A stretch of 64,000 bases of DNA. Source: a virus. The translations under genes and the position numbers were made by a program. Numbering within the stretch: the stretch's first letter is position 1; each line of letters opens with the position of its first letter. The notes under the pieces are model-generated. The model saw nothing but the letters and a program-made list of their open reading frames with translations, was not told the origin of the DNA and did no database searches. Below are positions 7,468-18,185 of the stretch, in pieces. The stretch lies in the IMG/VR virus record IMGVR_UViG_3300017917_001030, positions 66,603-130,602 of that record, one strand, 5' to 3'.

Positions 7468-7543
7468 CTGTTATACTTATGGTATGGTTACAGAATTTAA
7501 GTCTAGCAAAAAGGTAAAACCTTTTTATTACCTAAAAAAGTGC

Positions 7544-7572
7544 TTGACTCGGTGACCGATTGAACATATAAT
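7544..7572 (+). promoter_or_regulatory. Sigma70-type early promoter
   Basis: TTGACT-N17-TATAAT preceded by AAAAAAGTGC. Confidence 0.85.
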
Positions 7573-7578
7573 AATGGT

Positions 7579-7968: not shown

Positions 7969-7993
7969 CAAGTTGAACAGAATGCTATATAAT
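7965..7993 (+). promoter_or_regulatory. Sigma70-type early promoter
   Basis: TTGACA-N17-TATAAT, perfect consensus. Confidence 0.9.
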
Positions 7994-8036
7994 TTGACTT
8001 GTGATTGTTTAATATCTTTTGAAAAGGATCTATATT

Positions 8037-8468
8037 ATGTCTAAAACTTCAGCAACATTCACCGTCGCCGGTGTGTCTACTCAGAACGGCGTTACTAAAG
8101 TGCGCTTTGCTAATGACTTGGCATCTCGTGTCAAGCTCTTGTCTAAAGGTGGGCATTCCCCTCTTGAACTTATTGAGTTGCCTAAGGCAATGACTAAGGC
8201 TGAGGCTTGCCAGCATCTTCTTAGTGTTGGCGGAGTGTTCAATCAATGGACTGATCTGATTAATCAGACCATGGATAAGAAGTCTGGCGTTGTTGTGGCT
8301 CAAGCCAAAGCAGCAAAGCCTGCAAAGAAAGCGACCCCTGCTAAAGCTGCAGTACCTGCTAAGAAAGCAGCACCGGCTAAAAAGGCAGTCCCCGCTAAAG
8401 CACCTAAGGCATCTGCCGAAGATGATTTTGAGATTGAGGAATTGAAAGAGCTTGCTGAGGCAAACTAA
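8037..8468 (+). CDS. Hypothetical protein with histone-H1-like PAKKA-repeat tail
   Basis: AAGGA ribosome-binding site; repeated PAKKA/PAKAA units followed by an acidic tip. Confidence 0.75.
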   Translation: MSKTSATFTVAGVSTQNGVTKVRFANDLASRVKLLSKGGHSPLELIELPKAMTKAEACQHLLSVGGVFNQWTDLINQTMDKKSGVVVAQAKAAKPAKKATPAKAAVPAKKAAPAKKAVPAKAPKASAEDDFEIEELKELAEAN

Positions 8469-8531
8469 TTCAAAAAAGTATCACTAGAACCGTTGGTCAG
8501 GCTATATATAATATATAGCAAGGAAAGTAAA

Positions 8532-8648
8532 ATGTTACTAATATCTAAACCCCTACACTGCGAGAGCAATTATATTGGCAGACAGCCAGTAGAAGCCTTT
8601 GCACGCACAAATTCATGGGATGAATTTACCGAGGGGCGGGATAGTTAA
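8532..8648 (+). CDS. Putative attenuator leader peptide, 38 aa, containing all 20 amino acids
   Basis: AAGGAAAG ribosome-binding site; MLLISKPLHCESNYIGRQPVEAFARTNSWDEFTEGRDS*; its 3' part TACCGAGGG is complementary to the 5' arm of the following terminator. Confidence 0.7.
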   Translation: MLLISKPLHCESNYIGRQPVEAFARTNSWDEFTEGRDS

Positions 8649-8669
8649 GTAGTATACTACGTTCTTAAC

Positions 8670-8708
8670 AAAACCCTCGGTACCCCTAAAGTCCGAGGGT
8701 TTTTCTTT
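8670..8708 (+). terminator. Rho-independent terminator (putative attenuator)
   Basis: AAAACCCTCGG/CCGAGGGTTTT stem followed by a T-rich tract. Confidence 0.85.
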
Positions 8709-8735
8709 ATATGACAATTTTTAATAACCTTGTGC

Positions 8736-8764
8736 TTGACAGGGTTTCTAAAAGGTGTTATAAT
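8736..8764 (+). promoter_or_regulatory. Sigma70 promoter at the start of the tRNA array
   Basis: TTGACA-N17-TATAAT with an extended -10 TG. Confidence 0.9.
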
Positions 8765-8794
8765 AAGCATCTGGTTTAGAAGTGTTCTAAACAT

Positions 8795-8807
8795 TGTTCT
8801 TTAAAAA
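8795..8807 (+). promoter_or_regulatory. boxA-like antitermination element
   Basis: TGTTCTTTAAAAA resembles rrn boxA TGCTCTTTAACA and lies between the promoter and the first tRNA. Confidence 0.55.
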
Positions 8808-8821
8808 TTTGCATTCCAATT

Positions 8822-8895
8822 ACCCGGTTAGCTCAAAGGTAGAGCACACGACTGATAATCGTGAGACAGAGGATCGTTACCTCTACTGGGTACCA
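8822..8895 (+). tRNA. tRNA-Ile(GAT)
   Basis: Cloverleaf; anticodon loop CTGATAA; encoded CCA; T-loop ATCGTTA. Confidence 0.92.
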
Positions 8896-8967
8896 TATAA
8901 AAACACATTACGGCAACCTGCCTGAGGGAGAGGATACCGAACTAGTGTCGGGTAGTGTGTTTCTATA
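8896..8967 (+). ncRNA. Family-B long-stem spacer RNA, copy 1
   Basis: TATAAAAACACATTA...TAGTGTGTTTCTATA closing stem, identical to 11437-11523. Confidence 0.55.
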
Positions 8968-8975
8968 TAGTTTAT

Positions 8976-9052
8976 GCTCGGTTCGTCTAGCGGTCCAGGA
9001 CAACGGCCTTTCACGTCGTAGATCACGGGTTCAAATCCCGTACCGAGTACCA
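8976..9052 (+). tRNA. tRNA-Glu(TTC)
   Basis: Cloverleaf; loop CTTTCAC; CCA. Confidence 0.95.
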
Positions 9053-9058
9053 CAAATT

Positions 9059-9143
9059 GGAGGTGTAGGAAAATTGGTAACCCCAGCGGACTGTAAATCC
9101 GCCGCCCCTGGCACTACTTGTTCGACTCAAGTCACCTCCACCA
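9059..9143 (+). tRNA. tRNA-Tyr(GTA)
   Basis: Cloverleaf with long variable arm; loop CTGTAAA; CCA. Confidence 0.93.
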
Positions 9144-9148
9144 TATTA

Positions 9149-9257
9149 AGGATGCGAACAGCAATCTTTTTTAACTTTAAGCCAAACGAGTGGTCCGGTT
9201 CGATTCCGGCTTGTGGTGTAATGGTAGCATACCCGTCAAAAGTAAAAAGGCATCCTG
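9149..9257 (+). ncRNA. Family-A (Y-RNA/YrlA-like) RNA, copy 1, with a permuted T-arm/D-arm tRNA mimic
   Basis: AGGATGC-GAA-CAGCAA...GCATCCTG; internal CCGG-TTCGATT-CCGG followed by TGGTGTAATGGTAGCAT. Confidence 0.7.
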
Positions 9258-9265
9258 TTAATAAT

Positions 9266-9343
9266 GGCTAGGTGGCAGAGTGGTCCAATGCAGCGGATTG
9301 CAAATCCGTAAAGTCGTCAGTTCGAATCTGACTCTAGCTTCCA
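9266..9343 (+). tRNA. tRNA-Cys(GCA)
   Basis: Cloverleaf; loop TTGCAAA; U73; CCA. Confidence 0.93.
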
Positions 9344-9355
9344 ACAAAAAAGTGC

Positions 9356-9383
9356 TTGACTTTTTTAGTACAGGCATTATAAT
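9356..9383 (+). promoter_or_regulatory. Sigma70-type promoter within the tRNA array
   Basis: AAAAAAGTGC-TTGACT-N16-TATAAT. Confidence 0.8.
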
Positions 9384-9534
9384 AAGTACATAAATTAATA
9401 ACACGCCTCGCAGCGTTATTAAACTAGTGTTAGCTCTGCTAATTACTAGCGCAAATATAAACGGTGCATCAACGATGTGCTTTCGGTATCCGCGATAGAG
9501 ATACGGCTAAAGTTCGTAATGCCAAAAGTATTTA

Positions 9535-9609
9535 GGTCTCAAAGTGTTCATGGACGCACGCAAGCCTGTCACGCTTGAAGAAGGGGATCGTTACCCCTTG
9601 GGACCGCCA
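9535..9609 (+). tRNA. tRNA-Asp(GTC)
   Basis: Cloverleaf; loop CTGTCAC; G73; CCA; T-loop ATCGTTA. Confidence 0.92.
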
Positions 9610-9611
9610 AG

Positions 9612-9727
9612 ATTTAGTAAGTGCTGTTTACAGCAACCGTGTCACAAGTCTAGGGTTGAGGCTCTAGTTTAGTATGTTTACATACACCGTGTTGCAAGTG
9701 AAGGGTTGAGGCTCTTCCTTACTAAAT
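9612..9727 (+). ncRNA. Structured RNA with two tandem covarying 50-nt units
   Basis: ATTTAGTAAG/CTTACTAAAT closing stem; repeated hairpin-ACCGTGT-CAAGT-hairpin unit. Confidence 0.6.
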
Positions 9728-9748
9728 ATTTTTATCTCAAAGTTTTAT

Positions 9749-9823
9749 TCCGGAGTAGCACAGCGGTAGTGCAGTTGACTGTTAATCAATTGGTCGTAGG
9801 TTCGATCCCTGCCTCCGGAGCCA
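9749..9823 (+). tRNA. tRNA-Asn(GTT)
   Basis: Cloverleaf; loop CTGTTAA; CCA. Confidence 0.95.
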
Positions 9824-9828
9824 GTTAT

Positions 9829-9904
9829 GCGGGTGTAATTCAGTTGGTAGAATGCTTCCTTGCCAAGGAAGATGTCGAGAGTTCGAGTCTCTTCGCCCGC
9901 TCCA
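9829..9904 (+). tRNA. tRNA-Gly(GCC)
   Basis: Cloverleaf; loop TTGCCAA; U73; CCA. Confidence 0.95.
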
Positions 9905-9909
9905 GTTTT

Positions 9910-9969
9910 AGGATAGTAACAGCAATCAAAAAGCATACATTTGTAACTGTAAAAGCAAACTCTATCCTG
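9910..9969 (+). ncRNA. Family-A RNA, copy 2 (short)
   Basis: AGGATAG-TAA-CAGCAA...CTATCCTG. Confidence 0.65.
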
Positions 9970-9979
9970 TTATTTTTTA

Positions 9980-10056
9980 GCCCCGGTGACGGAATTGGTA
10001 TACGTGTTGGTCTTAGAAACCAAATTTTAGGAGTTCGAGTCTCCTCTGGGGCACCA
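9980..10056 (+). tRNA. tRNA-Leu(TAG), short variable arm
   Basis: Cloverleaf; loop CTTAGAA; A73; CCA. Confidence 0.9.
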
Positions 10057-10059
10057 AGT

Positions 10060-10226
10060 TTTGTAAGTGTAGATGTTGAGAAAGCATGTATAGGCATATA
10101 TGTGTGAGGCGGATATGAAACCCCGACAAGTAACAACTAGTACTACGTACCTCTAACCAGTCCGCGGCTTATCTAGAAAATACTGGTAAAATGGTTCCGA
10201 ATGAGGGAGGCGGAACTACTTACAAA
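10060..10226 (+). ncRNA. Putative structured RNA of about 167 nt
   Basis: TTTGTAAGT/ACTTACAAA closing stem directly after a tRNA CCA; no credible ORF. Confidence 0.4.
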
Positions 10227-10274
10227 TTCATTCTCGCTTTGACTTATGGCGTACAATAGGATAAATTATAAGTC

Positions 10275-10342
10275 ATTTTTAAAGTACATTATGAAAAGAA
10301 TTCCGAGATAAATCGGTAGGTAACATAGTGTATTTTAAAAAT
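10275..10342 (+). ncRNA. Family-B long-stem spacer RNA, divergent copy
   Basis: ATTTTTAAAGTACATTATG...CATAGTGTATTTTAAAAAT stem. Confidence 0.45.
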
Positions 10343-10343
10343 T

Positions 10344-10419
10344 GGGGCCATAGCTCATCTGGGAGAGCGCCTGTTTTGCAAGCAGGAGGCGGTCGGTTCG
10401 AGTCCGACTGGTTCCACCA
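10344..10419 (+). tRNA. tRNA-Ala(TGC)
   Basis: Cloverleaf; loop TTTGCAA; G3:U70; CCA. Confidence 0.95.
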
Positions 10420-10423
10420 AATT

Positions 10424-10498
10424 GCCTGGATAGCTCAGGGGTAGAGCGTCTCCCTTACAAGGAGAGGGTCCGCGGTTCGAAACCGTGTCCAGGTACCA
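10424..10498 (+). tRNA. tRNA-Val(TAC)
   Basis: Cloverleaf; loop CTTACAA; CCA. Confidence 0.95.
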
Positions 10499-10503
10499 AT
10501 CAT

Positions 10504-10580
10504 CGGGGTGTAGCGCAGCCTGGTAGCGCATCTGCTTTGGGAGCAGGAGGTCGTGAGTTCGAGTCCCACCACCCCGACCA
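10504..10580 (+). tRNA. tRNA-Pro(TGG)
   Basis: Cloverleaf; loop TTTGGGA; CCA. Confidence 0.95.
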
Positions 10581-10595
10581 TCATAAGGAAATGCT

Positions 10596-10862
10596 ATGTC
10601 ATATGTACCATTGAGAGATAAAGTTCTGTTGGAAGAAACAGAAAAAGCTACAGTCACAGAAAGCGGAATTTATTTAGGTGACGCTCGTGCAGATAACAAT
10701 ACACGACCAGGTCGTGTTCTTGCAGTAGGTCCAGAAGTGTCCGAAATCAAAGCAGGAGATATTGTTTACGTGATGTGGCAAAAATCTCATATCATCAAAG
10801 AAGGCGATAAATTGCTTGCAATCGTAGGCATAGATGATATAATTGCAGTATTAGAAGATTAA
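10596..10862 (+). CDS. groES: Co-chaperonin GroES (Cpn10)
   Basis: PLRDKVL...TESGIYL...GRVLAVGP...DIIAVLE matches the GroES pattern; TAAGGA ribosome-binding site. Confidence 0.88.
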   Translation: MSYVPLRDKVLLEETEKATVTESGIYLGDARADNNTRPGRVLAVGPEVSEIKAGDIVYVMWQKSHIIKEGDKLLAIVGIDDIIAVLED

Positions 10863-10863
10863 T

Positions 10864-10940
10864 GTGACCATAGCTCAGTAGGATAGAGCATCTGCCTTCT
10901 AAGCAGACGGTCGGGGGTTCGAATCCCTCTGGTCACGCCA
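10864..10940 (+). tRNA. tRNA-Arg(TCT)
   Basis: Cloverleaf; loop CTTCTAA; CCA. Confidence 0.95.
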
Positions 10941-10945
10941 GTTTT

Positions 10946-11009
10946 AGGATAGTAACAGCAACCACAATTTACACTAGACTTATAATCTAACCAGTAAAAT
11001 TCTATCCTG
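10946..11009 (+). ncRNA. Family-A RNA, copy 3, carrying an anticodon-stem-loop-like hairpin (TAGA-CTTATAA-TCTA)
   Basis: AGGATAG-TAA-CAGCAA...CTATCCTG. Confidence 0.65.
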
Positions 11010-11013
11010 TTAT

Positions 11014-11089
11014 TCCCTCTTCGCCAAGTTGGTAAGGCATCGGATTTTGATTCCGACATTCGGTGGTTCGAGTCCATCAGGGGGAGCCA
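11014..11089 (+). tRNA. tRNA-Gln(TTG)
   Basis: Cloverleaf; loop TTTTGAT; CCA. Confidence 0.93.
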
Positions 11090-11095
11090 ATTAGT

Positions 11096-11174
11096 TGGGG
11101 CGTAGTGTACTCTGGTATTAGCACACTGGTCTTTGAAACCAGTAGATTGGGTTCGATTCCCGACGCCCTTACCA
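11096..11174 (+). tRNA. tRNA-Gln(TTG), second divergent copy with U1:U72 mismatch
   Basis: Cloverleaf; loop CTTTGAA; CCA. Confidence 0.85.
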
Positions 11175-11280
11175 TATTATTTTTAAACGGAGAACGACAT
11201 GAAACGAGGTAAACTCTAGTGTCATCCCAGGTCCCGTATTGGTCTTGGATGGCACGTAAAATCAATTTAATTACGACCAT

Positions 11281-11357
11281 CCCTTGCTGGCGTCAACGGT
11301 TAGCGTACCGGACTCTTAATCCGCGAGGTCTCAGTTCGAATCTGAGGCAAGGGACCA
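11281..11357 (+). tRNA. tRNA-Lys(CTT)
   Basis: Cloverleaf; loop CTCTTAA; CCA. Confidence 0.92.
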
Positions 11358-11361
11358 ATAT

Positions 11362-11436
11362 GGGATTGAAGCTTTAAGGTGAAGCAACGGACTTTTAATC
11401 CGTAGAACTGGGATCGTCGGCCCAGCAGTCCTACCA
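11362..11436 (+). tRNA. tRNA-Lys(TTT), atypical 8-nt T-loop
   Basis: Cloverleaf; loop CTTTTAA; T-loop ATCGTCGG; CCA. Confidence 0.85.
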
Positions 11437-11523
11437 TATAAAAACACATTAAACGCCCACCCATCGTGGTTGATGGCCGGTAGTTGCGTCTCTAACCAAG
11501 CCGCTTCATAGTGTGTTTCTATA
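11437..11523 (+). ncRNA. Family-B long-stem spacer RNA, copy 2
   Basis: Same 15-nt arms as 8896-8967 with a different interior. Confidence 0.55.
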
Positions 11524-11615
11524 TGGTAGTTTAACTCCGTGGTTAACTCCGCCAGGCCGATACGCTCTATAGAGCGTGTCGAAGCAAGGAGCTACCATAA
11601 CCTAAAAAGATAAAA

Positions 11616-11807
11616 ATGTATATTTCACAAATAGCAAGAATCAACGATCATTATATGGGTCGTGATCGAGAAAAAGTTTATGTTACTTTGAAAGATGAAA
11701 ACGGAGCTACTTATACCAGATATGAGCAGTACCTTTTCACGCCTTACAACAAGCAAGGTAAACTAGAAGAATTACAAAAAGGTAATACCATAGATTTAAA
11801 AGCTTAG
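11616..11807 (+). CDS. Hypothetical protein, 63 aa
   Basis: ORF filling a gap in the tRNA array. Confidence 0.6.
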   Translation: MYISQIARINDHYMGRDREKVYVTLKDENGATYTRYEQYLFTPYNKQGKLEELQKGNTIDLKA

Positions 11808-11882
11808 CGGTCCTTAGTTCAATGGATAGAATGCCATGCTTCGAACTTGGAGATGTGGGTTCGATTCCTGCAGGACCGGCCA
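11808..11882 (+). tRNA. tRNA-Arg(TCG)
   Basis: Cloverleaf; loop CTTCGAA; CCA. Confidence 0.88.
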
Positions 11883-11886
11883 ATTT

Positions 11887-11962
11887 GCCCTGGTGACGGA
11901 ACGGTATACGTGTCGGATTCAAAATCCGAATTCTGAGAGTTCGAATCTCTCCTGGGGCACCA
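11887..11962 (+). tRNA. tRNA-Leu(CAA), short variable arm
   Basis: Cloverleaf; loop TTCAAAA; A73; CCA; paralog of 9980-10056. Confidence 0.9.
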
Positions 11963-11964
11963 AT

Positions 11965-12040
11965 GGTATTCTTAGTGTAGTGGTCTGCACACGACGTTGT
12001 GACCGTCGTAGTATGAGTTCGATCCTCATAGAATACCCCA
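11965..12040 (+). tRNA. tRNA-His(GTG)
   Basis: G-1:C73 pair; loop TTGTGAC; CCA. Confidence 0.93.
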
Positions 12041-12049
12041 AACAATTAT

Positions 12050-12125
<76 letters not shown>

Positions 12126-12130
12126 AATAT

Positions 12131-12220
12131 GGAAGCGTGGTAGAGTGGTCTAATACGTCAGCCTTGAAAACTGAAGATTCTTAATCGGGTCCGTGAGTTC
12201 GAATCTCACCGCTTCCACCA
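12131..12220 (+). tRNA. tRNA-Ser(TGA)
   Basis: Long variable arm; loop CTTGAAA; CCA. Confidence 0.93.
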
Positions 12221-12322
12221 GTATTCTTGCAAGAAGAAAACACTGCGCCCTGAGCCTCACCGGGCGGTATGTCAGTTACAAAACAGTAGGGTAAGAGTCC
12301 CAAGGAGAGGCACGAATACAAT

Positions 12323-12413
12323 AGTGAGATGCGAGAGTTGGTCTAATCGGCCTCCCTGGAAAGGAGTGCATCGTGCAAACGGTACTAGGGTTCGAATCCC
12401 TATCTCACTGCCA
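12323..12413 (+). tRNA. tRNA-Ser(GGA)
   Basis: Long variable arm; loop CTGGAAA; CCA. Confidence 0.9.
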
Positions 12414-12415
12414 AC

Positions 12416-12503
12416 GGAAGATTAACTGAGTAGGACTCAGCACTGATTCGAAACCAGTTGGACTCAGAAATGGGTTGGGGATCGAGACCTCAGTCTTCCA
12501 CCA
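12416..12503 (+). tRNA. tRNA-Ser(CGA) with a tRNA-Sec-like extended D-stem
   Basis: GGAAGAT/GTCTTCC acceptor stem; CTGAG/CTCAG D-stem; loop TTCGAAA; long variable arm; CCA. Confidence 0.8.
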
Positions 12504-12505
12504 GG

Positions 12506-12534
12506 TTGACACTAAAATCAAAAGATGTTATAAT
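12506..12534 (+). promoter_or_regulatory. Sigma70 promoter
   Basis: TTGACA-N17-TATAAT with an extended -10 TG. Confidence 0.9.
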
Positions 12535-12554
12535 TAATTTTTAAGGAGTTAAAG

Positions 12555-13076
12555 ATGCCAGCAGTATTCATTGTTAGTGATACGCACTTCGGGCATGCTG
12601 GTGTCTGCAAATTCTTACGTGAAGATGGCACCAAGCTTAGACCATGGGACTCACCTGAAGAAATGGATGAGGCAATGGTTAAGGCCTGGAACGAAACAGT
12701 TAGACCTAATGATAAAGTTTATCACCTCGGCGACGTAGTTATTAATCGCAAAGCTCTACACATTCTTGGTAGACTGAATGGTGATAAAGTTCTTATCAAA
12801 GGCAACCATGATATTTTTAAGTTAGAGGATTATACTCAATACTTCAGAGATATTCGTGCATATCATGTAATGAACAACTACATTCTTTCCCACATTCCTG
12901 TTCACGCATCGTCAAAGGGAAGGTTTGCAGGTAACATTCATGGGCACCTACACTCTAACAAAGTAATGACTATGGACGGTAACTTTGTTGATCCATGGTA
13001 TCAGTGTGTTTGTGTAGAGCAAACTGATTTTAGGCCTATTACATTTGAAAATGTATTGAAACGATTTGAAAAATAA
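12555..13076 (+). CDS. Calcineurin-like metallophosphoesterase
   Basis: SDTHFGH, HLGD, KGNHD, SHIP and HGHLH motifs. Confidence 0.92.
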   Translation: MPAVFIVSDTHFGHAGVCKFLREDGTKLRPWDSPEEMDEAMVKAWNETVRPNDKVYHLGDVVINRKALHILGRLNGDKVLIKGNHDIFKLEDYTQYFRDIRAYHVMNNYILSHIPVHASSKGRFAGNIHGHLHSNKVMTMDGNFVDPWYQCVCVEQTDFRPITFENVLKRFEK

Positions 13077-13166
13077 GGAAGACGGGCAGGACGGTAATGC
13101 AGCGGATTGCTAATCCGTAGACCGTAGTAATACGGTCAGTGGGTTCGACTCCCACGTCTTCCACCA
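13077..13166 (+). tRNA. tRNA-Ser(GCT)
   Basis: Long variable arm; loop TTGCTAA; CCA. Confidence 0.93.
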
Positions 13167-13171
13167 GTTTT

Positions 13172-13285
13172 AGGATACTTGCAGCAAATTCACAGCAATG
13201 AAAGCCGTGTGTTTTAGGTTCGATTCCTAAATTCCCCGTTAGGAGAATTAGCTCAATTGGTAGAGCAACGAAAAAGAGTATCCTG
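13172..13285 (+). ncRNA. Family-A (YrlA-like) RNA, copy 4: circularly permuted tRNA mimic
   Basis: AGGATAC-TTG-CAGCAA...GTATCCTG; T-arm 13214-13230, loop-closed acceptor stem 13231-13248, TA plus D-arm 13249-13266. Confidence 0.8.
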
Positions 13286-13293
13286 TTATTTTT

Positions 13294-13385
13294 GCCAGCG
13301 AGACTGGGTAGTCAGAGAGGTCTTATAAACCTTTTAGCGCCAGATTAGCGTTCTTGAGAGTGTTCGAGTCACTCCGCTGGTACCA
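13294..13385 (+). tRNA. Atypical tRNA with TAT anticodon (Ile?), long variable arm and minimal D-loop
   Basis: GCCAGCG/CGCTGGT acceptor stem; GACT-GGGT-AGTC D-arm; loop CTTATAA; TTCGAGT T-loop; ACCA end. Confidence 0.75.
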
Positions 13386-13389
13386 TTTT

Positions 13390-13464
13390 GGTGATATGAC
13401 GTAGACGGATGCGTAGCGGTTTCATAAGCCGACGAGGTTGGATCGTTACCAACTATCACCACCA
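13390..13464 (+). tRNA. tRNA-Met(CAT), elongator or Ile2
   Basis: Cloverleaf; loop TTCATAA; T-loop ATCGTTA; CCA. Confidence 0.85.
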
Positions 13465-13472
13465 TATATAAT

Positions 13473-13549
13473 GCGTCCTTAGCATAACTGGAGAATGCAC
13501 TGGTTTACGAAGCCAGGGGATGGGAGTTCGAATCTCTTGGGACGCACCA
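13473..13549 (+). tRNA. tRNA-Arg(ACG)
   Basis: Cloverleaf; loop TTACGAA; CCA. Confidence 0.93.
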
Positions 13550-13555
13550 TATAAA

Positions 13556-13629
13556 GCTCCTATAGTTAAGTGGTATAACGTATCCTTGGTAAGGATAAAT
13601 TCTGAGTTCAATTCTCGGTGGGAGCACCA
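13556..13629 (+). tRNA. tRNA-Thr(GGT)
   Basis: Cloverleaf; loop TTGGTAA; CCA. Confidence 0.93.
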
Positions 13630-13644
13630 ACAAAGGAGTTACTT

Positions 13645-13824
13645 ATGAGCGGCAAAGGTTCCAAACCAAGACCATTCAGTGTAGATAGTGATACCTACAG
13701 TAATAATTGGAATGCAATTTTCGGTAAGAAAAAAGACAATACTGGTACAGATAAGAATGAATATTATGATGTACTAAGTACAGAAGAATCATTAACAGAA
13801 AACGAAAAAGATAAAACAGAATAA
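13645..13824 (+). CDS. Small hypothetical protein (MSGKGSKPRPFSV...WNAIFGKK)
   Basis: AAGGAG ribosome-binding site before ATG 13645. Confidence 0.75.
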   Translation: MSGKGSKPRPFSVDSDTYSNNWNAIFGKKKDNTGTDKNEYYDVLSTEESLTENEKDKTE

Positions 13825-13828
13825 TTAT

Positions 13829-13902
13829 GCATCCCTGATGTAATGGCAGCATGACGGTCTCCAAAACCGTTCGTCGGGGTTCGAGTCCCTGGGGGTGTGC
13901 CA
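13829..13902 (+). tRNA. tRNA-Trp(CCA)
   Basis: Cloverleaf; loop CTCCAAA; CCA. Confidence 0.93.
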
Positions 13903-13982
13903 ATATTCGTGAGCAGGTTTAATTTCGATCTCAGCGGCCCTGACGATCAAAAATTAAAACCTTTTTATTAATACCCTGACGG

Positions 13983-14011
13983 TTGACAGAGTCATTGAAA
14001 GACATTATAAT
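13983..14011 (+). promoter_or_regulatory. Sigma70 promoter
   Basis: TTGACA-N17-TATAAT. Confidence 0.88.
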
Positions 14012-14031
14012 AATGGTATAGTAAGTTAAAT

Positions 14032-14109
14032 GCGGGTAGACAGGACAAGGGGCGTCCAGCAGCCTTCCAAGCTGAAGATCGCGGAGTTCGACTCTCCCTA
14101 CCCGCTCCA
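14032..14109 (+). tRNA. tRNA-Gly(TCC), apparent 8/4 fold
   Basis: GCGGGTAG/CTACCCGC acceptor stem; GGAG/CTCC T-stem; loop CTTCCAA; U73; CCA. Confidence 0.85.
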
Positions 14110-14127
14110 ATTTTGTTAGGTGGTACT

Positions 14128-14607
14128 ATGAGAAAGCAAATTAACATCGAAGAAATCAAGTCGTTTATCGACGCCCAGAGTCCCGAAACCAAAATTTACA
14201 TTGGTGCGGATTCAGAACGTTACAAACGTGATGGTGTTTGGTATGCCGACTATACTCTTGCTGTTGTAGTACACATCGACGGTCGTCATGGTTGTAAGAT
14301 TTTCGGTGAAGTTCAAACCGAAATCGACTATGACAAAAAGAACAGTCGCCCTGCAATGCGACTAATGAACGAAGTTTACAAAGTATCAGAACTATATCAC
14401 AAGCTTGTTGATGTTGTTGGTGATCGAGAAGTCCAAATACATCTTGACATCAACCCGCAAGAATGTTATAATAGTTCAATAGTAATTCAACAAGCCGTAG
14501 GTTATATCAAAGGAACTTGTAACATTATTCCGATGGTTAAACCGAAAGCTTTTGCAGCAAGCTATGCCGCAGACCGACTAAAGGAAGTCTTGGCGCTTGC
14601 AGCTTGA
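14128..14607 (+). CDS. RNase H-like YkuK-family protein
   Basis: IYIGADS, RLMNEV, IHLDIN and KPKAFAASYAAD motifs. Confidence 0.85.
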   Translation: MRKQINIEEIKSFIDAQSPETKIYIGADSERYKRDGVWYADYTLAVVVHIDGRHGCKIFGEVQTEIDYDKKNSRPAMRLMNEVYKVSELYHKLVDVVGDREVQIHLDINPQECYNSSIVIQQAVGYIKGTCNIIPMVKPKAFAASYAADRLKEVLALAA

Positions 14608-14613
14608 GAATAA

Positions 14614-14688
14614 GCCGAAGTAGCACAACGGTAGTGCAGCGCTCTTGTAAAGCGAAGGTTGAGGGTTCGATTCCTTTCTTCGGCACCA
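14614..14688 (+). tRNA. tRNA-Thr(TGT)
   Basis: Cloverleaf; loop CTTGTAA; CCA. Confidence 0.94.
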
Positions 14689-14694
14689 GTTATT

Positions 14695-14921
14695 AGGATG
14701 AGTACAGCAGTCACAAAACGAAAATAAAGTACTGCCCATTCACGGAGGACCACCGTAAGGTGTAATTTTATGGGCTATGGGGCATACCTGAAATAAAATA
14801 GCGATGCTGGTTAACCAGATAGACTAACATACTCGAATGTATGTTTGATTTCAGTGGGGAATTCGCCCGAAAGGGAGCACTGGGGTTCAAGAACCAAGTT
14901 AATACTAACCCGACCATCCTG
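14695..14921 (+). ncRNA. Family-A RNA, copy 5 (long, 227 nt, multi-hairpin cargo)
   Basis: AGGATGA-GTA-CAGCAG...CATCCTG. Confidence 0.55.
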
Positions 14922-14932
14922 CTTATATTATT

Positions 14933-15029
14933 AGAATAGGTTCAGCAAACATCTAGCGGTGTAATACCCGCATTATAGGAAGGTGAGTTTCGAGTTTTCA
15001 CCATAATCAAAAAGTAGAAAACTATTCTG
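14933..15029 (+). ncRNA. Family-A RNA, copy 6, directly upstream of the Ro60-like gene
   Basis: AGAATAG-GTT-CAGCAA...CTATTCTG (compensatory change); internal hairpin with a TTCGAGT-containing loop. Confidence 0.65.
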
Positions 15030-15073
15030 ATGTATAGGTTAAAATAAATCATAACCTGAAAGTGAGAAAAAAT

Positions 15074-16510
15074 ATGAATACTTTTGTTGAAGCAGTAGCA
15101 AATCAAGAAGCCCGTACCACTAACGGTATGAAGGCTCGTAAGTCCACCGCATCCGCTGTTGTAGATTTGTTCTACAATATTGGTGCATCCCGTGGCAAGA
15201 ATGTTATCCCCGGCTTTACTGCCGCACTTGCAGAGAACCGTGACTTGGCACTTCGTGTTGCAGCATGGGCTCGTGATGTGCGTGGTGGTGCAGGTGAACG
15301 ACAACTCTTCCGTGACATTCTTGTCTACTTGGAAAAGTACGACCCCGAAGCAGCTAAGGCTCTTTTGGCTAAGGTACCTGAGCTGGGTCGTTGGGACGAC
15401 TTGTTCGTCTTTAAGACCAAGGAGCTAAAGGAAGCAGCATACACTATGTTGGGTGACGCATTGCGTGAACGCAACGGTCTGGCTGCTAAGTGGACTCCTC
15501 GTCAAGGCCCTATTGCTTTGGAAATCCGTAAGTTCTTCGGCATGTCGCCTAAGTTCTATCGTAAGTCCTTGGTTAACCTAACTAAGGTCGTTGAACAAGA
15601 TATGTGTGCTAAGAACTGGGATAACATCAACTTCTCTCATGTTCCTTCGGTTGCGGCATCCCGTTACAAGAAGGCATTTAACCGTAACACTGAAAAGTAT
15701 GCAGAATACGTAAAGTCGTTGGTTAAGGGAGATAACCCGGAAGTTAAGGTCAACGCAGGCGCAGTATATCCATATGATGTAGTGAAGGGAATCATCCCTA
15801 ACTCTTATGTCAAAAGCGCTTTTGACAAGACAGAGCTTGACCTAATTGAAAAGCAATGGGAAGCTCTTCCTAATTACGTAGGCGATGCTAACATTCTTCC
15901 TTTGGTTGACGTTAGCGGGTCGATGTCTTGTCCTGTTGGTGGCTATGGTTCTAAGAATAAGATGTCCTGTATGGATGTTGCTGTTTCGTTGGGACTTTAC
16001 CTTGCGGACAAGAACAAGGGCAAGTTCAAGGATACTTTCTTGACATTTAGCTCTTCGCCAGAACTACTTACTCTAAAGGGTAATATTGTTCAAAAGGTTA
16101 CACAAATGGTTGCTTCTAAGTGGGGAATGTCCACCAACCTACACGCAGCATTTTCAAAGATTCTGTCTGTAGCGAAGAAAGGTAATGTTCCGCAAGAAGA
16201 AATGCCAGATATGGTATTGATCTTGTCCGACATGCAATTCAATGCTTGCATTGAGCATGACGACAGTGCAATCAAAATGATTGCTCGTAAGTACGAAGAA
16301 GCAGGCTACACCATGCCTAAGGTTGTATTCTGGAACTTGAATGCTGCATATGGTAACACACCAGTGAAGTTTGACAAGTCTGGTACTGCTTTGGTATCTG
16401 GTTTTAGCCCATCTATTGTTAAGCCTTTGTTGGCAGGCAACCTTGAAACTTTCACCCCAGAAAGTGTCATGTTGCAGACCATCATGCAAGACCGTTACGC
16501 GGTATTGTAA
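15074..16510 (+). CDS. DUF2828-like / TROVE(Ro60)-like helical-repeat plus vWA protein
   Basis: RDVRGGAGER, GRWDDL and AKWTPR motifs; C-terminal vWA with MIDAS DVSGSM, STNL and ILSDMQF, plus VFWNL; alternative GTG start at 15062. Confidence 0.8.
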   Translation: MNTFVEAVANQEARTTNGMKARKSTASAVVDLFYNIGASRGKNVIPGFTAALAENRDLALRVAAWARDVRGGAGERQLFRDILVYLEKYDPEAAKALLAKVPELGRWDDLFVFKTKELKEAAYTMLGDALRERNGLAAKWTPRQGPIALEIRKFFGMSPKFYRKSLVNLTKVVEQDMCAKNWDNINFSHVPSVAASRYKKAFNRNTEKYAEYVKSLVKGDNPEVKVNAGAVYPYDVVKGIIPNSYVKSAFDKTELDLIEKQWEALPNYVGDANILPLVDVSGSMSCPVGGYGSKNKMSCMDVAVSLGLYLADKNKGKFKDTFLTFSSSPELLTLKGNIVQKVTQMVASKWGMSTNLHAAFSKILSVAKKGNVPQEEMPDMVLILSDMQFNACIEHDDSAIKMIARKYEEAGYTMPKVVFWNLNAAYGNTPVKFDKSGTALVSGFSPSIVKPLLAGNLETFTPESVMLQTIMQDRYAVL

Positions 16511-16635
16511 GTGCTCAATTCTGACAGCACGTTAAACACGGTCAGACGTCGATCTTAAATGACTGCGCCGGCACTACGCAAGGTGTCTCCGTACTCGGTA
16601 AGCGGAACTAATTTCAATTTTGGTTAACCTATTGG

Positions 16636-16664
16636 TTGACGAAAATTTGCCAAGGCTATATAAT
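16636..16664 (+). promoter_or_regulatory. Sigma70 promoter
   Basis: TTGACG-N17-TATAAT. Confidence 0.85.
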
Positions 16665-16675
16665 AAGTGTTTTAT

Positions 16676-16758
16676 GCGGGTGTGGTGAAATAGGTAGACA
16701 CAGGAGACTTAAAATCTCCCGCTTCGGCGTGCTGGTTCGAGTCCGGTCACCCGTACCA
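16676..16758 (+). tRNA. tRNA-Leu(TAA)
   Basis: Long variable arm; loop CTTAAAA; CCA. Confidence 0.95.
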
Positions 16759-16771
16759 TTATTCTAAAACT

Positions 16772-17236
16772 ATGAAAGATAATATGTCACTAACTTTACA
16801 AAATATTGAAAGTGCTTTGGCGGGTGAGTCTATGGCTCATATCAAGTATCGTTACTTTGCCAAAATTGCACGTGAGGAAGGCTTCGAAGAAGTCGCAAAA
16901 CATTTTGAACATACTGCAGATCAAGAAATTCTTCATGCTTGGGGTCACCTTGAGCTGTTGATTGGTAAGCCTAATACCAAAGAATGCCTTGAAAAAGCTA
17001 TTGCAGGTGAGACTTATGAGTATACTGAAATGTATCCTAAGTTCGAGCATCAGGCAAAAGCAGAATCTAATATCGAAGCAGTTAAAGAGTTCAACGAACA
17101 AGGTCGTGAATCCTTGCAGCATGCTCAAGAATTTAAAGCAGTATTGGCAAAAGCAGAAAAGCGCTTTGCTGCTCTTAAGGGTGTCGAGAAGCGTCATGCT
17201 GAAGCATACCAAAAAGTTCTTGGAGGTCTAGCATGA
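16772..17236 (+). CDS. rbr: Rubrerythrin (ferritin-like diiron protein)
   Basis: ALAGESMA, AREEG, E-x-x-HA, AIAGETYEYTEMYP and EKRHA motifs; start could instead be ATG 16784. Confidence 0.9.
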   Translation: MKDNMSLTLQNIESALAGESMAHIKYRYFAKIAREEGFEEVAKHFEHTADQEILHAWGHLELLIGKPNTKECLEKAIAGETYEYTEMYPKFEHQAKAESNIEAVKEFNEQGRESLQHAQEFKAVLAKAEKRFAALKGVEKRHAEAYQKVLGGLA

Positions 17237-17388
17237 GCGATAATCAATACGAATACAAGCATGTCTGTCCTGTTTGTGACTATGTTCATGAGGACAATGA
17301 AACTACTCCATTCGATCAAATGCCTGCTGATTATGTTTGCCCAGCATGCGGTGTCGAAAAAGATTGGTTTGATAAACGAGTTGCATGA
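17233..17388 (+). CDS. Rubredoxin, 51 aa (not in the ORF track)
   Basis: MSDNQYEYKHVCPVCDYVH...MPADYVCPACGVEKDWF has two CxxC motifs; ATGA overlaps at both ends. Confidence 0.88.
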   Translation: MSDNQYEYKHVCPVCDYVHEDNETTPFDQMPADYVCPACGVEKDWFDKRVA

Positions 17389-17780
17389 TTGATTGTCTAG
17401 TCATCGGTGATTCTATTGCCGTAGGTGTTCAGCAGTTTAGGCAAGAGTGTGCGATCTATGCTAAGGTAGGTATTAATAGCAGAGATTGGAACAACAAGTT
17501 TATCGGCAAAGACCTACGTGCAAATACAGTTATTATTAGCCTGGGGTCTAACGACTCCGGCAATATTAAGACTGCTGCAGAGCTAAACGAACTAAGACAA
17601 TCGGTAACATCCAAAAAAGTAGTTTGGATTTTGCCTTCTAATAATAGTGACAAACGAGACATCGTAAAATTCATAGCAGAAAAATACGGTGATATTGTGT
17701 TGGGTGTAAATCAACTATCCAAAGACGGTGTGCATCCAACAGTCGCTGGTTATAAAGAATTAGCAAATAATACAAAATAG
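17385..17780 (+). CDS. SGNH/GDSL hydrolase-like protein
   Basis: IGDSIA, SLGSND and DGVHP blocks. Confidence 0.85.
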   Translation: MIDCLVIGDSIAVGVQQFRQECAIYAKVGINSRDWNNKFIGKDLRANTVIISLGSNDSGNIKTAAELNELRQSVTSKKVVWILPSNNSDKRDIVKFIAEKYGDIVLGVNQLSKDGVHPTVAGYKELANNTK

Positions 17781-17785
17781 TTTTT

Positions 17786-17862
17786 GCGCCTGTAGCTCAG
17801 TTGGTTAGAGCAGTGGACTCATAATCCATTGGTCGCGGGTTCAAGTCCCTCCGGGCGCACCA
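17786..17862 (+). tRNA. tRNA with CAT anticodon (Ile2-like or Met)
   Basis: Cloverleaf; loop CTCATAA; CCA. Confidence 0.92.
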
Positions 17863-17877
17863 TTTAACGAGGTAATT

Positions 17878-18087: not shown

Positions 18088-18185
18088 ACTAAGCTATTTA
18101 GCTTTATCGTCATCTATATTATAATAAGCATGTGGTGAGTTAGCCGCAATCGTTATTTTTTTTTTTATTTTAATGGAGATTTACA

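What the first reader, a model, noticed from the sequence alone, without database searches (positions are those of the whole stretch)
8501..8708. Putative pan-tRNA-sensing attenuator: a leader peptide with all 20 amino acids at the entrance to the tRNA array
Seen in the sequence: a 38-codon ORF with a ribosome-binding site (8532-8648, MLLISKPLHCESNYIGRQPVEAFARTNSWDEFTEGRDS). It contains all 20 amino acids by codon 30 and uses 32 different codons. It opens with TTA, CTA and ATA and includes AGA, all read by tRNAs encoded downstream. Its 3' part TACCGAGGG (8627-8635) is the perfect 9-nt complement of CCCTCGGTA (8674-8682), which overlaps the 5' arm of the terminator at 8670-8708, so antiterminator and terminator are mutually exclusive. 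Established knowledge: this is the architecture of trp/his-type translation-coupled attenuators, which normally sense one or a few amino acids through codon runs. Inference: this leader samples nearly every tRNA, so stalling on any depleted or cleaved tRNA (for example after anticodon-nuclease defence) would free the antiterminator and allow read-through into 33 tRNA genes, while a ribosome reaching the stop would mask it. A palindrome GCTATATATAATATATAGC (8501-8519), containing TATAAT and a TATATATA late-promoter-like variant, precedes it. Caveat: a separate sigma70 promoter (8736-8764) lies downstream of the terminator, so the switch would control only read-through or late transcription.
Basis: partly seen in the sequence, partly recalled or inferred. 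Interest (0 to 1): 0.92.

Follow-up and report, generated by a model that had tools for sequence, protein, structure and literature searches.

The report
All-amino-acid leader switch before phage tRNAs
An uncultured T4-like phage and dozens of relatives start their tRNA gene cluster with a tiny translated gene that evolution keeps stocked with nearly all 20 amino acids and that ends inside a stop/go RNA switch, so slow decoding of any codon probably lets transcription run on into the phage's own tRNA genes.

Summary
The window holds a 38-codon ORF (8532-8648) with all 20 amino acids, a 9-nt segment (8627-8635) complementary to the 5' arm of a terminator hairpin (8674-8699 plus T run), then a consensus sigma-70 promoter and a 31+ tRNA array.

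It is conserved: 57 of 81 loci carry the same layout. That layout is a T4-type late-promoter box, a 29-42 codon ORF, an antiterminator at the ORF end, a terminator, a promoter and tRNAs.

Of 41 distinct homologous leader peptides, 25 hold all 20 amino acids, 14 hold 19 and 2 hold 18, at a mean pairwise identity of only 34%. Column shuffles, decay simulations and all other small ORFs of these phages fail to reproduce this.

The ORF end and the terminator arm covary. An upstream C-rich segment and a conserved mid-ORF hairpin complete a trp-like four-segment design. Folding with a masked ribosome switches from antiterminator to terminator at a conserved Trp codon.

Best reading (about 0.7): a pan-aminoacyl-tRNA-sensing attenuator that feeds read-through into the phage tRNA array. 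Nothing is shown experimentally.

I found no published account. The closest in print is the mycobacterial whiB7 uORF attenuator. This scan's earlier unpublished notes report the same design on other phage DNA.

The parts
8503..8510 (+). Late-promoter-like box, one mismatch to the T4-type late octamer carried at this place by all 38 other unique relatives. It lies inside the palindrome 8501-8519.
   Evidence: Exact octamers lie 20-32 nt before five long ORFs of the window. A gp55 late-sigma homolog is in the same genome.
8520..8527 (+). Purine-rich Shine-Dalgarno-like stretch ahead of the leader start codon.
   Evidence: Equivalent purine runs occur in most relatives, and a leaderless-type start occurs in the L002, L008, L041, L055 and L070 groups.
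8532..8648 (+). Leader ORF: 38 codons plus stop, all 20 amino acids, 32 different codons.
8542..8554 (+). Segment 1 (anti-antiterminator): C-rich stretch around the conserved Pro codon (codons 4-8). It pairs with segment 2 in the untranslated RNA.
   Evidence: The same partner region appears in most of the 14 of 18 representatives whose free-RNA fold keeps the terminator.
8559..8603 (+). Mid-ORF two-tier hairpin. The outer stem joins the Cys-codon region to the Phe-Ala codons, and the inner stem covaries among clades. It is a candidate RNA polymerase pause hairpin.
8616..8618 (+). Conserved Trp codon that marks the 3' limit of the modelled sensing zone.
8627..8635 (+). Segment 2: antiterminator 5' strand, exact complement of 8674-8682.
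   Evidence: (7 of 500 shuffles as stable)
8649..8660 (+). Small palindromic hairpin in the 25-nt spacer between the stop codon and the terminator.
8670..8682 (+). Segment 3: A-run plus the terminator 5' arm (8674-8680) and two loop bases. It is shared by the antiterminator and the terminator.
8693..8704 (+). Segment 4: terminator 3' arm (8693-8699) and T run (8700-8704).
   Evidence: In one search, 4 of 7 stem pairs show compensatory changes.
8736..8764 (+). Consensus sigma-70 promoter with an extended -10, downstream of the terminator. It gives attenuator-independent expression of the array.
   Evidence: It is conserved in the relatives and duplicated in some.
8822..17862 (+). Regulated target: array of 31 or more tRNA genes covering all 20 amino acids, interleaved with a phosphoesterase gene, a Ro60-like gene and other genes.

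Best explanation
This is a ribosome-mediated transcription attenuator of the trp-leader type, placed at the entrance of the phage tRNA array. Its leader peptide is kept by selection as a near-complete sample of the 20 amino acids.

Transcripts arrive from the late-type promoter box, or from the upstream gene, which has no terminator of its own. They carry four pairing segments:
- segment 1: C-rich, codons 4-8;
- segment 2: G-rich, at the ORF end;
- segment 3: the terminator 5' arm;
- segment 4: the terminator 3' arm.

Three outcomes follow.
- No translation: 1 pairs with 2, 3 pairs with 4, and transcription stops.
- The ribosome runs through to the stop codon: it covers segment 2, 3 pairs with 4, and transcription stops.
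- The ribosome stalls anywhere from about codon 3 to the conserved Trp codon, because the aminoacyl-tRNA for that codon is scarce: segment 1 is covered or left behind, segment 2 pairs with segment 3 as soon as 3 is made, the terminator cannot form, and RNA polymerase reads on into the tRNA genes.

Because the sensing zone holds 18-20 different amino acids, shortage of almost any charged tRNA would raise supply of the phage's own tRNAs. That is a feedback loop on decoding capacity, useful late in infection or after tRNA loss.

Shown here: the sequence anatomy, its conservation, selection on amino-acid completeness, covariation, and fold behaviour in silico. Inferred: translation, stalling, read-through, the late timing, and the physiological trigger.
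For: 1) Conservation and synteny.
- The upstream gene has 226 relatives in viral contigs, of which 80 were kept.
- tRNAs follow on the same strand in 63 of the 75 loci where its stop codon is seen.
- The element is found in 55 of 81 loci by nhmmer, plus L043 and L072 by eye.
- 38 of 39 unique regions have a late box and an ORF of at least 24 codons ending 15-45 nt before the terminator. The 39th is cut by its contig end.

2) Completeness of the amino-acid set.
- Of 34 distinct peptides, 20 have 20 residue types, 12 have 19 and 2 have 18.
- With 7 more, the tally is 25, 14 and 2 of 41 (hand count).
- The null mean is 14.4-15.8 types.
- Uniform composition gives P(20) = 0.002-0.02.
- Column shuffle on 17 clade representatives (mean identity 34%): observed 19.59 and 11 complete, against 17.38 +/- 0.26 and 0.69 complete; 0 of 20000 shuffles reach it.
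- Decay from a complete ancestor with 50-66% of residues replaced gives P(20) = 1.5-2.7%.
- Of 1126 distinct small ORFs in all loci, 24 are complete, and 21 of those are leaders.

3) Reading frame. The two other frames carry stops in 15 of 17 and 17 of 17 representatives.

4) RNA switch.
- The stop-to-terminator gap is 25-33 nt.
- The ORF-end/terminator-arm duplex beats at least 97% of dinucleotide shuffles in 16 of 25 unique sequences, mean z -2.3.
- Matched partners average -15.43 kcal/mol against -12.79 for swapped partners, with 0 of 20000 permutations as good.
- L043, L072 and L101 changed both strands together.
- 4 of 7 terminator pairs show compensatory changes.
- Segment 1:2 pairing with an intact terminator appears in the free-RNA fold of 14 of 18.
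- The mid-ORF hairpin is present in 23 of 23, with varying inner stems.

5) Ribosome masking, folding only the RNA 3' of the ribosome.
- In the window, P(terminator) is at most 0.32 for A-site codons 3-29 and at least 0.99 from codon 30.
- In all 18 leaders, the 5' arm is already paired upstream (0.50-1.00) until about the Trp codon.
- After that the value falls, to 0.31 or less in 16 of 18. The window stays at 0.39-0.52 for three codons, and L088 stays at 0.31-0.67.

6) Late promoter. A gp55 homolog scores E 2.4e-21. Five of five exact boxes lie on the coding strand 20-32 nt before long ORFs.

7) Independent leaders with unrelated peptides.
- The L088 family has 18-19 types in 33-34 codons.
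- The L101 leader (17 types) lacks Cys, His and Ser. The contiguous array behind it serves exactly 16 amino acids, all present in the leader. The Cys, His and Ser tRNAs lie about 18 kb further on.

8) Precedent. In the M. smegmatis whiB7 uORF, removing the single Trp codon significantly lowered the response to Trp deprivation, and removing the three His codons abolished the response to His deprivation (PMC10274678, section 7 read).
Against: - There are no expression data, and no RNA run was available, so translation, termination and read-through are untested.
- The strong sigma-70 promoter just after the terminator means the switch can only add to array transcription.
- 11 of 81 loci have the gene-to-tRNA junction without the element: L024, L025, L028, L029, L034, L045, L048, L049, L068, L071 and L074.
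- Antiterminator pairing is no better than shuffles in the GTG-start clade (L009, L014, L015, L022, L023: z -0.01 to -1.56), in L026 and in L072.
- At equilibrium the terminator stays favoured whatever the ribosome position in L014 and L041 (at least 0.97), and largely so in L032 and L038.
- In 4 of 18 free-RNA folds, plus L088 and L101, the antiterminator wins without any ribosome.
- The masking model assumes that RNA behind a ribosome cannot pair with RNA ahead of it. Without that assumption the window's antiterminator wins only at codons 3-12.
- Each amino acid has only 1-3 codons. [quoted passage not shown]
- The match between leader set and tRNA set is imperfect. The L098, L102 and L105 arrays show no Phe tRNA although their leaders have Phe. 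L085 shows no Lys tRNA. The L095 array is complete but its leader lacks Val. The L088 phage record has only 6 tRNAs.
- In the window, Asp first appears at codon 30, at the edge of the modelled zone.
Confidence: 0.7

Rival explanations
1. It is a generic translation-status sensor. The leader and switch respond to any slowing of ribosomes (inhibitors, ribosome damage, loss of coupling), as the bmrCD, vmlR and tlrB leaders of Bacillus subtilis do. The amino-acid completeness carries no specific tRNA-by-tRNA logic.
For: The architecture is the same as those stalling-sensing attenuators: anti-antiterminator, antiterminator, terminator (PMC13689557, passages read). The L088 phage record has only 6 tRNAs behind a 19-type leader. 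The tRNA region also holds RNA-repair-like genes.
Against: A generic sensor needs no particular composition. Yet completeness is maintained against drift and is essentially unique among small ORFs of these phages. The L101 leader matches its proximal array.
Confidence: 0.15
2. It is a functional micropeptide or arrest peptide. The ORF encodes a small protein whose Phe-Ala-Arg...Asn-Ser-Trp motif acts by itself or inside the ribosome exit tunnel, and the hairpin is simply the terminator of this little late gene.
For: A peptide motif is shared by most clades, with some synonymous codon changes. Gene callers recorded 8 representatives of it.
Against: The motif codons form the 3' strand of the conserved mid-ORF hairpin and pair with the Cys-codon region, so RNA structure explains much of their conservation. 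The L036 group, L043, L072, the L088 family and L101 lack the motif but keep the design and the high diversity. A peptide function predicts neither completeness of the amino-acid set nor covariation between the ORF end and the terminator arm.
Confidence: 0.08
3. It is a chance ORF in an ordinary intergenic terminator region. The complementarity is a by-product of a G-rich Gly/Glu-coding end, or of a partial duplication of the terminator arm.
For: A 9-nt match within 200 nt is not rare by itself. 7 of 25 sequences show duplex energies within the shuffle range.
Against: The frame is kept in 17 clades. The composition statistics hold. Matched partners outscore swapped ones. The position of the stop codon relative to segment 2 and to the terminator is conserved.
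Confidence: 0.02

Closest known systems
Leader-peptide transcription attenuators of enterobacterial amino-acid operons (trp, his, phe, leu, thr, ilv leaders). The general design is recalled; the abstract of PMC1183508 was read.
   Same: Both have a short translated leader ORF, four pairing segments (1:2, 2:3, 3:4), an intrinsic terminator, and termination both without translation and after complete translation. In both, read-through follows a ribosome stalled inside the leader, and a hairpin inside the ORF could serve as the pause signal.
   Different: There is no run of codons for one or a few amino acids. Instead there are 18-20 different amino acids at 1-3 codons each. The sensing zone spans nearly the whole ORF. 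The controlled genes are tRNA genes of a phage, not biosynthetic enzymes. The input promoter is of the T4 late type, and a second promoter bypasses the switch. There is no sequence homology.
whiB7 (wblC) uORF attenuator of mycobacteria (PMC10274678; abstract and section 7 read)
   Same: In both, a uORF with an antiterminator and terminator has its amino-acid content decide which starvations are sensed. [quoted passage not shown]
   Different: The whiB7 uORF is enriched for Ala, varies in content between species, and controls a transcription factor for drug resistance. Here the leader is much more compact, completeness itself appears to be selected, and the output is the tRNA supply, which closes a direct feedback loop. 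It is phage-borne and not homologous.
Ribosome-stalling attenuators of Bacillus subtilis resistance genes: bmrCD, vmlR, tlrB (PMC13689557; passages read)
   Same: Both have a leader peptide with an anti-antiterminator, antiterminator and terminator, in which a stalled ribosome gives read-through.
   Different: Those are triggered by antibiotic-bound ribosomes and control resistance genes. No constraint on amino-acid completeness is described for them.
Inducible long tRNA array (trn operon) of Anabaena sp. PCC 7120 (PMC8421152, abstract read; PMC10272220, only the start of the abstract seen in the listing)
   Same: Both are supernumerary tRNA arrays whose expression rises when translation is impaired.
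   Different: According to the title and the start of the abstract of PMC10272220, control there involves a transcriptional repressor (TrcR). No leader peptide or attenuator is reported in what I read. It is cellular, not viral.
T-box riboswitches (recalled)
   Same: They sense the charging state of a tRNA and act through an antiterminator/terminator choice.
   Different: They bind one uncharged tRNA directly, without translation. No T-box or other cis-regulatory Rfam family matches 8400-8820.

Membership tests
Ribosome-mediated (leader-peptide) transcription attenuator | Short ORF with a start signal in the 5' leader, kept open in evolution | tested here: met
   ORF 8532-8648 with a purine-rich stretch before it. 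The homologous frame is open in 17 clade representatives, while the other frames carry stops in 15 and 17 of 17.
Ribosome-mediated (leader-peptide) transcription attenuator | Intrinsic terminator between the leader ORF and the controlled genes | tested here: met
   The hairpin 8674-8699 plus T run is present. It is conserved, with compensatory changes in 4 of 7 pairs.
Ribosome-mediated (leader-peptide) transcription attenuator | Antiterminator that shares a strand with the terminator and lies where a terminating ribosome would cover it | tested here: met
   8627-8635 pairs with 8674-8682. In the relatives it lies at or next to the stop codon. Matched partners score better than swapped ones, with 0 of 20000 permutations as good. 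It is weak in 7 of 25 sequences.
Ribosome-mediated (leader-peptide) transcription attenuator | Anti-antiterminator (segment 1:2) giving termination without translation | tested here: met
   The free-RNA fold keeps the terminator in 14 of 18 representatives, in most of them with segment 2 paired to codons 4-8. This is not so in L026, L043, L072, L077, L088 and L101.
Ribosome-mediated (leader-peptide) transcription attenuator | Read-through rises when the ribosome stalls in the leader | not testable with these tools
   Only an in-silico ribosome-masking model is available. No RNA run was listed.
Classical amino-acid operon attenuators (trp/his type) | Cluster of regulatory codons for the amino acid made by the operon | tested here: not met
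   32 different codons occur in 38, none more than twice. The controlled genes are tRNAs.
whiB7-type multi-amino-acid sensing uORF attenuator | uORF composition broad enough to report many amino acids, with single codons sufficing | tested here: inconclusive
   Breadth is met: 18-20 types in 41 of 41 main-family peptides. Whether single codons suffice here is untested. There is no sequence relationship and the regulated gene differs, so this is an analogy, not membership.
T-box / other curated cis-regulatory RNA families | Match to a curated covariance model | tested here: not met
   In an Rfam scan of 7500-19000 at E up to 1, nothing falls in 8400-8820.
T4-type late transcription unit | Late-promoter octamer upstream and a gp55-type sigma factor in the genome | tested here: inconclusive
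   A gp55 homolog is present. Exact octamers lie before five long ORFs and before the leader in 38 unique relatives. The window's own box has one mismatch, and no transcript start is known.

The most novel reading that the evidence does not exclude
Phages carry a homeostat for decoding capacity. A leader peptide that samples every amino acid acts as a pan-aminoacyl-tRNA gauge and switches late transcription into the phage's own tRNA set whenever any one tRNA runs short, for example after host tRNA cleavage or shut-off. The leader's amino-acid list co-evolves with the tRNA set it gates. In L101, the leader holds the 16 amino acids of its proximal array plus Leu, while the Cys, His and Ser tRNAs lie in a separate distant cluster.
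Probability: 0.5. Interest if true: 0.93.

Novelty: new variant of a known kind. Interest (0 to 1): 0.86.

Why it matters
How phages regulate their often large tRNA sets is essentially unknown. Attenuation by leader peptides has been tied to amino-acid biosynthesis, aminoacyl-tRNA synthetases and drug resistance, not to tRNA genes.

A compact leader that is selected to contain all amino acids would be a natural, general sensor of charged-tRNA supply wired directly to tRNA production. It would give a testable answer to when and why phage tRNAs are made. It could link to tRNA-targeting host defences. It would also offer a small portable part for reporting decoding stress.

The comparative signal is unusually clean for a regulatory element known only from metagenomes: completeness of the amino-acid set is kept while the peptide sequence drifts.

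Tried and rejected
- Cultured phages: blastn of 8000-8830 and tblastn of the upstream gene found nothing in the phage collection, so no cultured relative is at hand.
- The search for related loci with the single L072 protein returned only its own contig.
- MAFFT alignments (A1, A2) put the helices out of register. RNAalifold on A2 recovered only the terminator. I therefore measured the antiterminator, segment 1 and the mid-ORF hairpin per sequence in scripts, and built no covariance model.
- Folding with pairs allowed across the ribosome gave antitermination only for early codons. I kept it as a caveat and used the usual assumption.
- Codon adaptation: the leader is low, 0.539 against 0.705 +/- 0.074, with 1.7% of gene windows as low. 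The structure-forming G/C-rich codons explain much of that, so I draw nothing from it.
- tRNA-set matching is not general. I treat L101 as suggestive only. The hand-calculated chance that 3 missing types fall among 4 is 4 in 1140 under equal odds, which overstates the case because Cys and His are rare anyway.
- The pattern scans also brought chance matches without a T run, ORF or tRNAs. In one search, L096, L104 and L111 were dropped. In one search, most of the 120 metagenome loci were dropped and only 17 rows had a T-run terminator. L209 was dropped as a likely chance ORF.
- RNA runs: no RNA holder was listed.
- Literature: six searches found no report of a leader peptide gating tRNA genes or of an all-amino-acid leader in phages. 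Supplements were closed and not seen.
- The profile search of 1.84 billion representatives gave only 8 hits. Their amino-acid counts (P0004 complete, P0006 without His, P0008 without Val) are by eye.
Full report
**What is in the window**

The window is the last 64 kb of a 130.6-kb viral record estimated 72% complete. At 8532-8648 lies a 38-codon ORF preceded by a purine-rich stretch. It contains all 20 amino acids (the 20th appears at codon 30) and uses 32 different codons. Positions 8627-8635 are the exact reverse complement of 8674-8682.

The RNA fold of 8520-8715 forms a terminator hairpin with arms 8674-8680 and 8693-8699, followed by five T. The whole leader folds at -57 kcal/mol, better than all 200 shuffles, z -3.67. 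The simple terminator scan does not list this hairpin because its loop is longer than that scan allows.

A perfect sigma-70 promoter with an extended -10 follows at 8736-8764. The first of 31 tRNA genes starts at 8822, and 1-3 more appear at lower thresholds. The array serves all 20 amino acids. No curated RNA family matches the leader.

**What kind of phage**

- The window encodes UvsX-like and DnaB-like proteins.
- The record encodes a homolog of the T4 late sigma factor gp55: E 2.4e-21, 35% identity over residues 8-174 (with the query taken from the T4 record).
- The T4-type late-promoter octamer occurs five times in the window, always on the coding strand and 20-32 nt before the start of a long ORF. 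The count itself is not above chance.
- The leader's own box at 8503-8510 differs from the octamer by one base.
- There is no match to any cultured phage.

**Conservation**

The gene just upstream (8019-8468, a protein with a Lys/Ala-rich tail) has 226 relatives in viral contigs, of which 80 were fetched. In 63 of the 75 loci where its stop codon is seen, tRNA genes follow on the same strand. None has tRNAs upstream.

A nucleotide profile of the leader finds the element in 55 of 81 loci. L043 and L072 carry diverged versions seen by eye.

All 39 unique versions have a late box, exact in the 38 relatives. In 38 of them an ORF of at least 24 codons ends 15-45 nt before a terminator. The 39th is cut by the contig end.

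Eleven loci join the gene to the tRNA array without the element. Thirteen are truncated or uninformative.

**The amino-acid set is under selection**

The 34 distinct leader peptides from these loci have 29-42 residues: 20 contain all 20 amino acids, 12 contain 19 and 2 contain 18. Seven more from two pattern scans bring the tally to 25, 14 and 2 of 41 (hand count).

The nulls all fall short:
- Random peptides of these lengths with the phage's proteome composition hold 14.4-15.8 types, and P(all 20) is 4.5e-5 to 9e-4.
- Even uniform composition gives only 0.2-2%.
- In the phage's own record, the leader is the only one of 218 small ORFs with all 20. In all loci, 21 of the 24 complete small ORFs among 1126 are leaders.

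The 17 clade representatives share only 34% identity on average. Shuffling residues within alignment columns keeps conserved positions and composition. It drops the mean from 19.59 to 17.38 +/- 0.26 types and the number of complete peptides from 11 to 0.69. None of 20000 shuffles reaches the observed values.

Starting from a complete peptide and replacing 50-66% of residues leaves 1.5-2.7% complete. Thus losses of single-copy residues are compensated elsewhere in the peptide: the set is conserved, not the sequence. Relatedness inflates such tests somewhat, but not by this margin.

The two other frames carry stops in 15 and 17 of 17 representatives.

**RNA anatomy**

- Terminator. It is conserved, with compensatory changes in 4 of 7 pairs. 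It starts 25-33 nt after the stop codon.
- Segment 2. The last codons of the ORF, usually overlapping or touching the stop codon, are complementary to the terminator 5' arm and its upstream flank. In the window they lie 10 nt before the stop codon. In 16 of 25 unique sequences this duplex beats at least 97% of dinucleotide shuffles. It is weak in the GTG-start clade, in L026 and in L072.
- Covariation. Where the terminator arm or its flank differs (L036 group, L043, L072, L101, L088), the ORF end differs to match. Matched pairs average -15.43 kcal/mol against -12.79 for swapped pairs, with 0 of 20000 permutations as good.
- Segment 1. A C-rich stretch around a conserved Pro codon (window 8542-8554) pairs with segment 2 in the untranslated RNA. 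In the free-RNA fold, 14 of 18 representatives keep the terminator (compare).
- Mid-ORF hairpin. Between segments 1 and 2 lies a two-tier hairpin (window 8559-8603), present in all 23 leaders folded. Its outer stem joins the Cys-codon region to the Phe-Ala codons, and its inner stem has different sequences in different clades.

This hairpin explains much of the shared peptide motif at the RNA level. It sits where the pause hairpin of trp-type leaders sits; that comparison is from recall.

**Behaviour with a ribosome**

I masked 28 nt around each A-site codon and folded only the RNA ahead of the ribosome.

- In the window, the terminator probability is at most 0.32 for codons 3-29 and at least 0.99 from codon 30.
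- In all 18 leaders tested, the terminator 5' arm is already paired with upstream RNA (0.50-1.00) before the 3' arm is made, as long as the ribosome sits before about the conserved Trp codon.
- After that point the value falls to 0.31 or less in 16 of 18. The window stays at 0.39-0.52 for three codons, and L088 at 0.31-0.67.
- Up to the Trp codon the leaders already hold 16-20 types, and 29 of the 32 with a Trp hold 18-20. The window holds 19, with Asp following at codon 30.

Caveats:
- At equilibrium the terminator remains favoured in L014 and L041, and mostly in L032 and L038.
- If pairing across the ribosome is allowed, the window's switch works only for codons 3-12.

**Leaders with unrelated peptides**

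The pattern scan for late box, spacing and terminator found leaders with unrelated peptides.

- The L088 family has three members, with 18-19 types in 33-34 codons.
- L101 has 40 codons and 17 types.
- Both show the same switch in the masking model.

In the L101 phage, the 18 tRNA genes that directly follow the leader serve Lys, Val, Phe, Tyr, Ile, Trp, Gln, Met, Glu, Ala, Thr, Gly, Asp, Asn, Arg and Pro. The leader contains exactly these 16 plus Leu, and lacks Cys, His and Ser. The tRNAs for those three lie about 18 kb further on, or upstream in the case of one Ser tRNA.

Against a strict rule:
- the L098, L102 and L105 arrays show no Phe tRNA although their leaders have Phe;
- L085 shows no Lys tRNA;
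- the L095 array is complete but its leader lacks Val;
- the L088 phage record has only six tRNAs.

**Mechanism proposed**

The parts fit a trp-type attenuator whose regulatory codons are all codons. No translation, or completed translation, gives termination. A ribosome waiting for any scarce aminoacyl-tRNA between about codon 3 and the Trp codon gives read-through into the tRNA array.

The array has its own strong promoter. The switch would therefore add transcription from upstream, plausibly late transcription by gp55-polymerase when host-type promoters fade (inference, recalled T4 biology). It could also insulate the array from the upstream gene.

The trigger could be tRNA loss through host defence or shut-off. 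That part is pure inference.

**Comparison with what is known**

- The design matches enterobacterial leader attenuators, but it lacks their codon runs and their targets.
- The nearest published logic is the mycobacterial whiB7 uORF. Its M. smegmatis version encodes every amino acid except Cys. [quoted passage not shown] Removing its only Trp codon weakens the Trp response, and removing its three His codons abolishes the His response.
- B. subtilis bmrCD, vmlR and tlrB show stalling-driven attenuation in general.
- The Anabaena tRNA array is induced by translational stress, apparently through a repressor (listing).
- The Elf and Ehrenberg abstract warns that few regulatory codons mean low sensitivity. 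The whiB7 data show that single codons can still matter.
- Six literature searches found no leader peptide gating tRNA genes and no all-amino-acid leader in phages. Supplements were not available.

**Earlier notes of this scan**

These are unpublished AI notes and not independent evidence.

- The same stretch was flagged in an overlapping window (e1-6159161).
- Follow-up agents reported the same all-amino-acid design on other phage DNA (e1-5388380, e1-5810993, e1-6049458, e1-6100379).
- Others reported amino-acid-matched leaders before partial arrays (e1-5326844, e1-5802270, e1-5943215, e1-6108791).
- They gave me the leads to the whiB7 and Anabaena papers, which I read myself.
- My L101 result agrees with the matched-leader notes.

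**Verdict**

The mechanism is well founded in silico but untested. It is a new variant of leader-peptide attenuation, with an unusual sensing design and an unusual target.

Noticed in passing
window 15062-16510 and 13191-13290: A Ro60/TROVE-like RNA-binding protein gene (phrog_850, E 2e-143) lies inside the tRNA region. A weak YrlA (Y RNA-like) Rfam match sits at 13191-13290 (36.5 bits, below the gathering score of 69).
   Followed up: partly
window 8795-8807, and the same place in L003, L010, L022, L027 and L036: A T-rich boxA-like motif between the sigma-70 promoter and the first tRNA is conserved in the relatives' sequences printed. If that is right, transcripts from the downstream promoter would be termination-resistant.
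   Followed up: partly
window 8019-8468: A 149-residue protein with a Lys/Ala/Pro-rich, histone-H1-like tail has no PHROG match. It is nevertheless the conserved left neighbour of the tRNA array in at least 63 fetched loci, and has 226 relatives in viral contigs.
   Followed up: partly
L002, L008, L041, L055, L070 (leader start): In these groups the leader start codon lies only 5-6 nt after the late-promoter box. The late transcript would then be leaderless or nearly so. Other clades have a Shine-Dalgarno-like run instead. L077, L079 and L081 have both kinds of in-frame start.
   Followed up: no
G001 (L134) 35887-35958; window about 9139-9219: ARAGORN calls a tRNA with an anticodon for the TAA stop codon in the L101 phage at the standard threshold. 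It calls a similar one in the window only at a lowered threshold. This may be a suppressor tRNA or a tRNA-like RNA.
   Followed up: no
L008, L026, L038, L055, L058, L077, L079 (after the terminator): Two tandem copies of the consensus sigma-70 promoter, about 100-130 nt apart, lie between the terminator and the first tRNA (sequences).
   Followed up: no
L029, L036, L037, L040, L045, L061, L064, L073 (just after the upstream gene's stop): A conserved small hairpin is followed by a G-rich/C-rich structured stretch of about 70-100 nt, lying between the upstream gene and the leader or the first tRNA. Its function is unknown.
   Followed up: no
window 28651-58697: There are very large ORFs of 1125, 2092, 2986, 1074 and 1836 residues, with only weak structural or tail-fibre PHROG matches. 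Two of them are preceded by exact late-promoter boxes.
   Followed up: no
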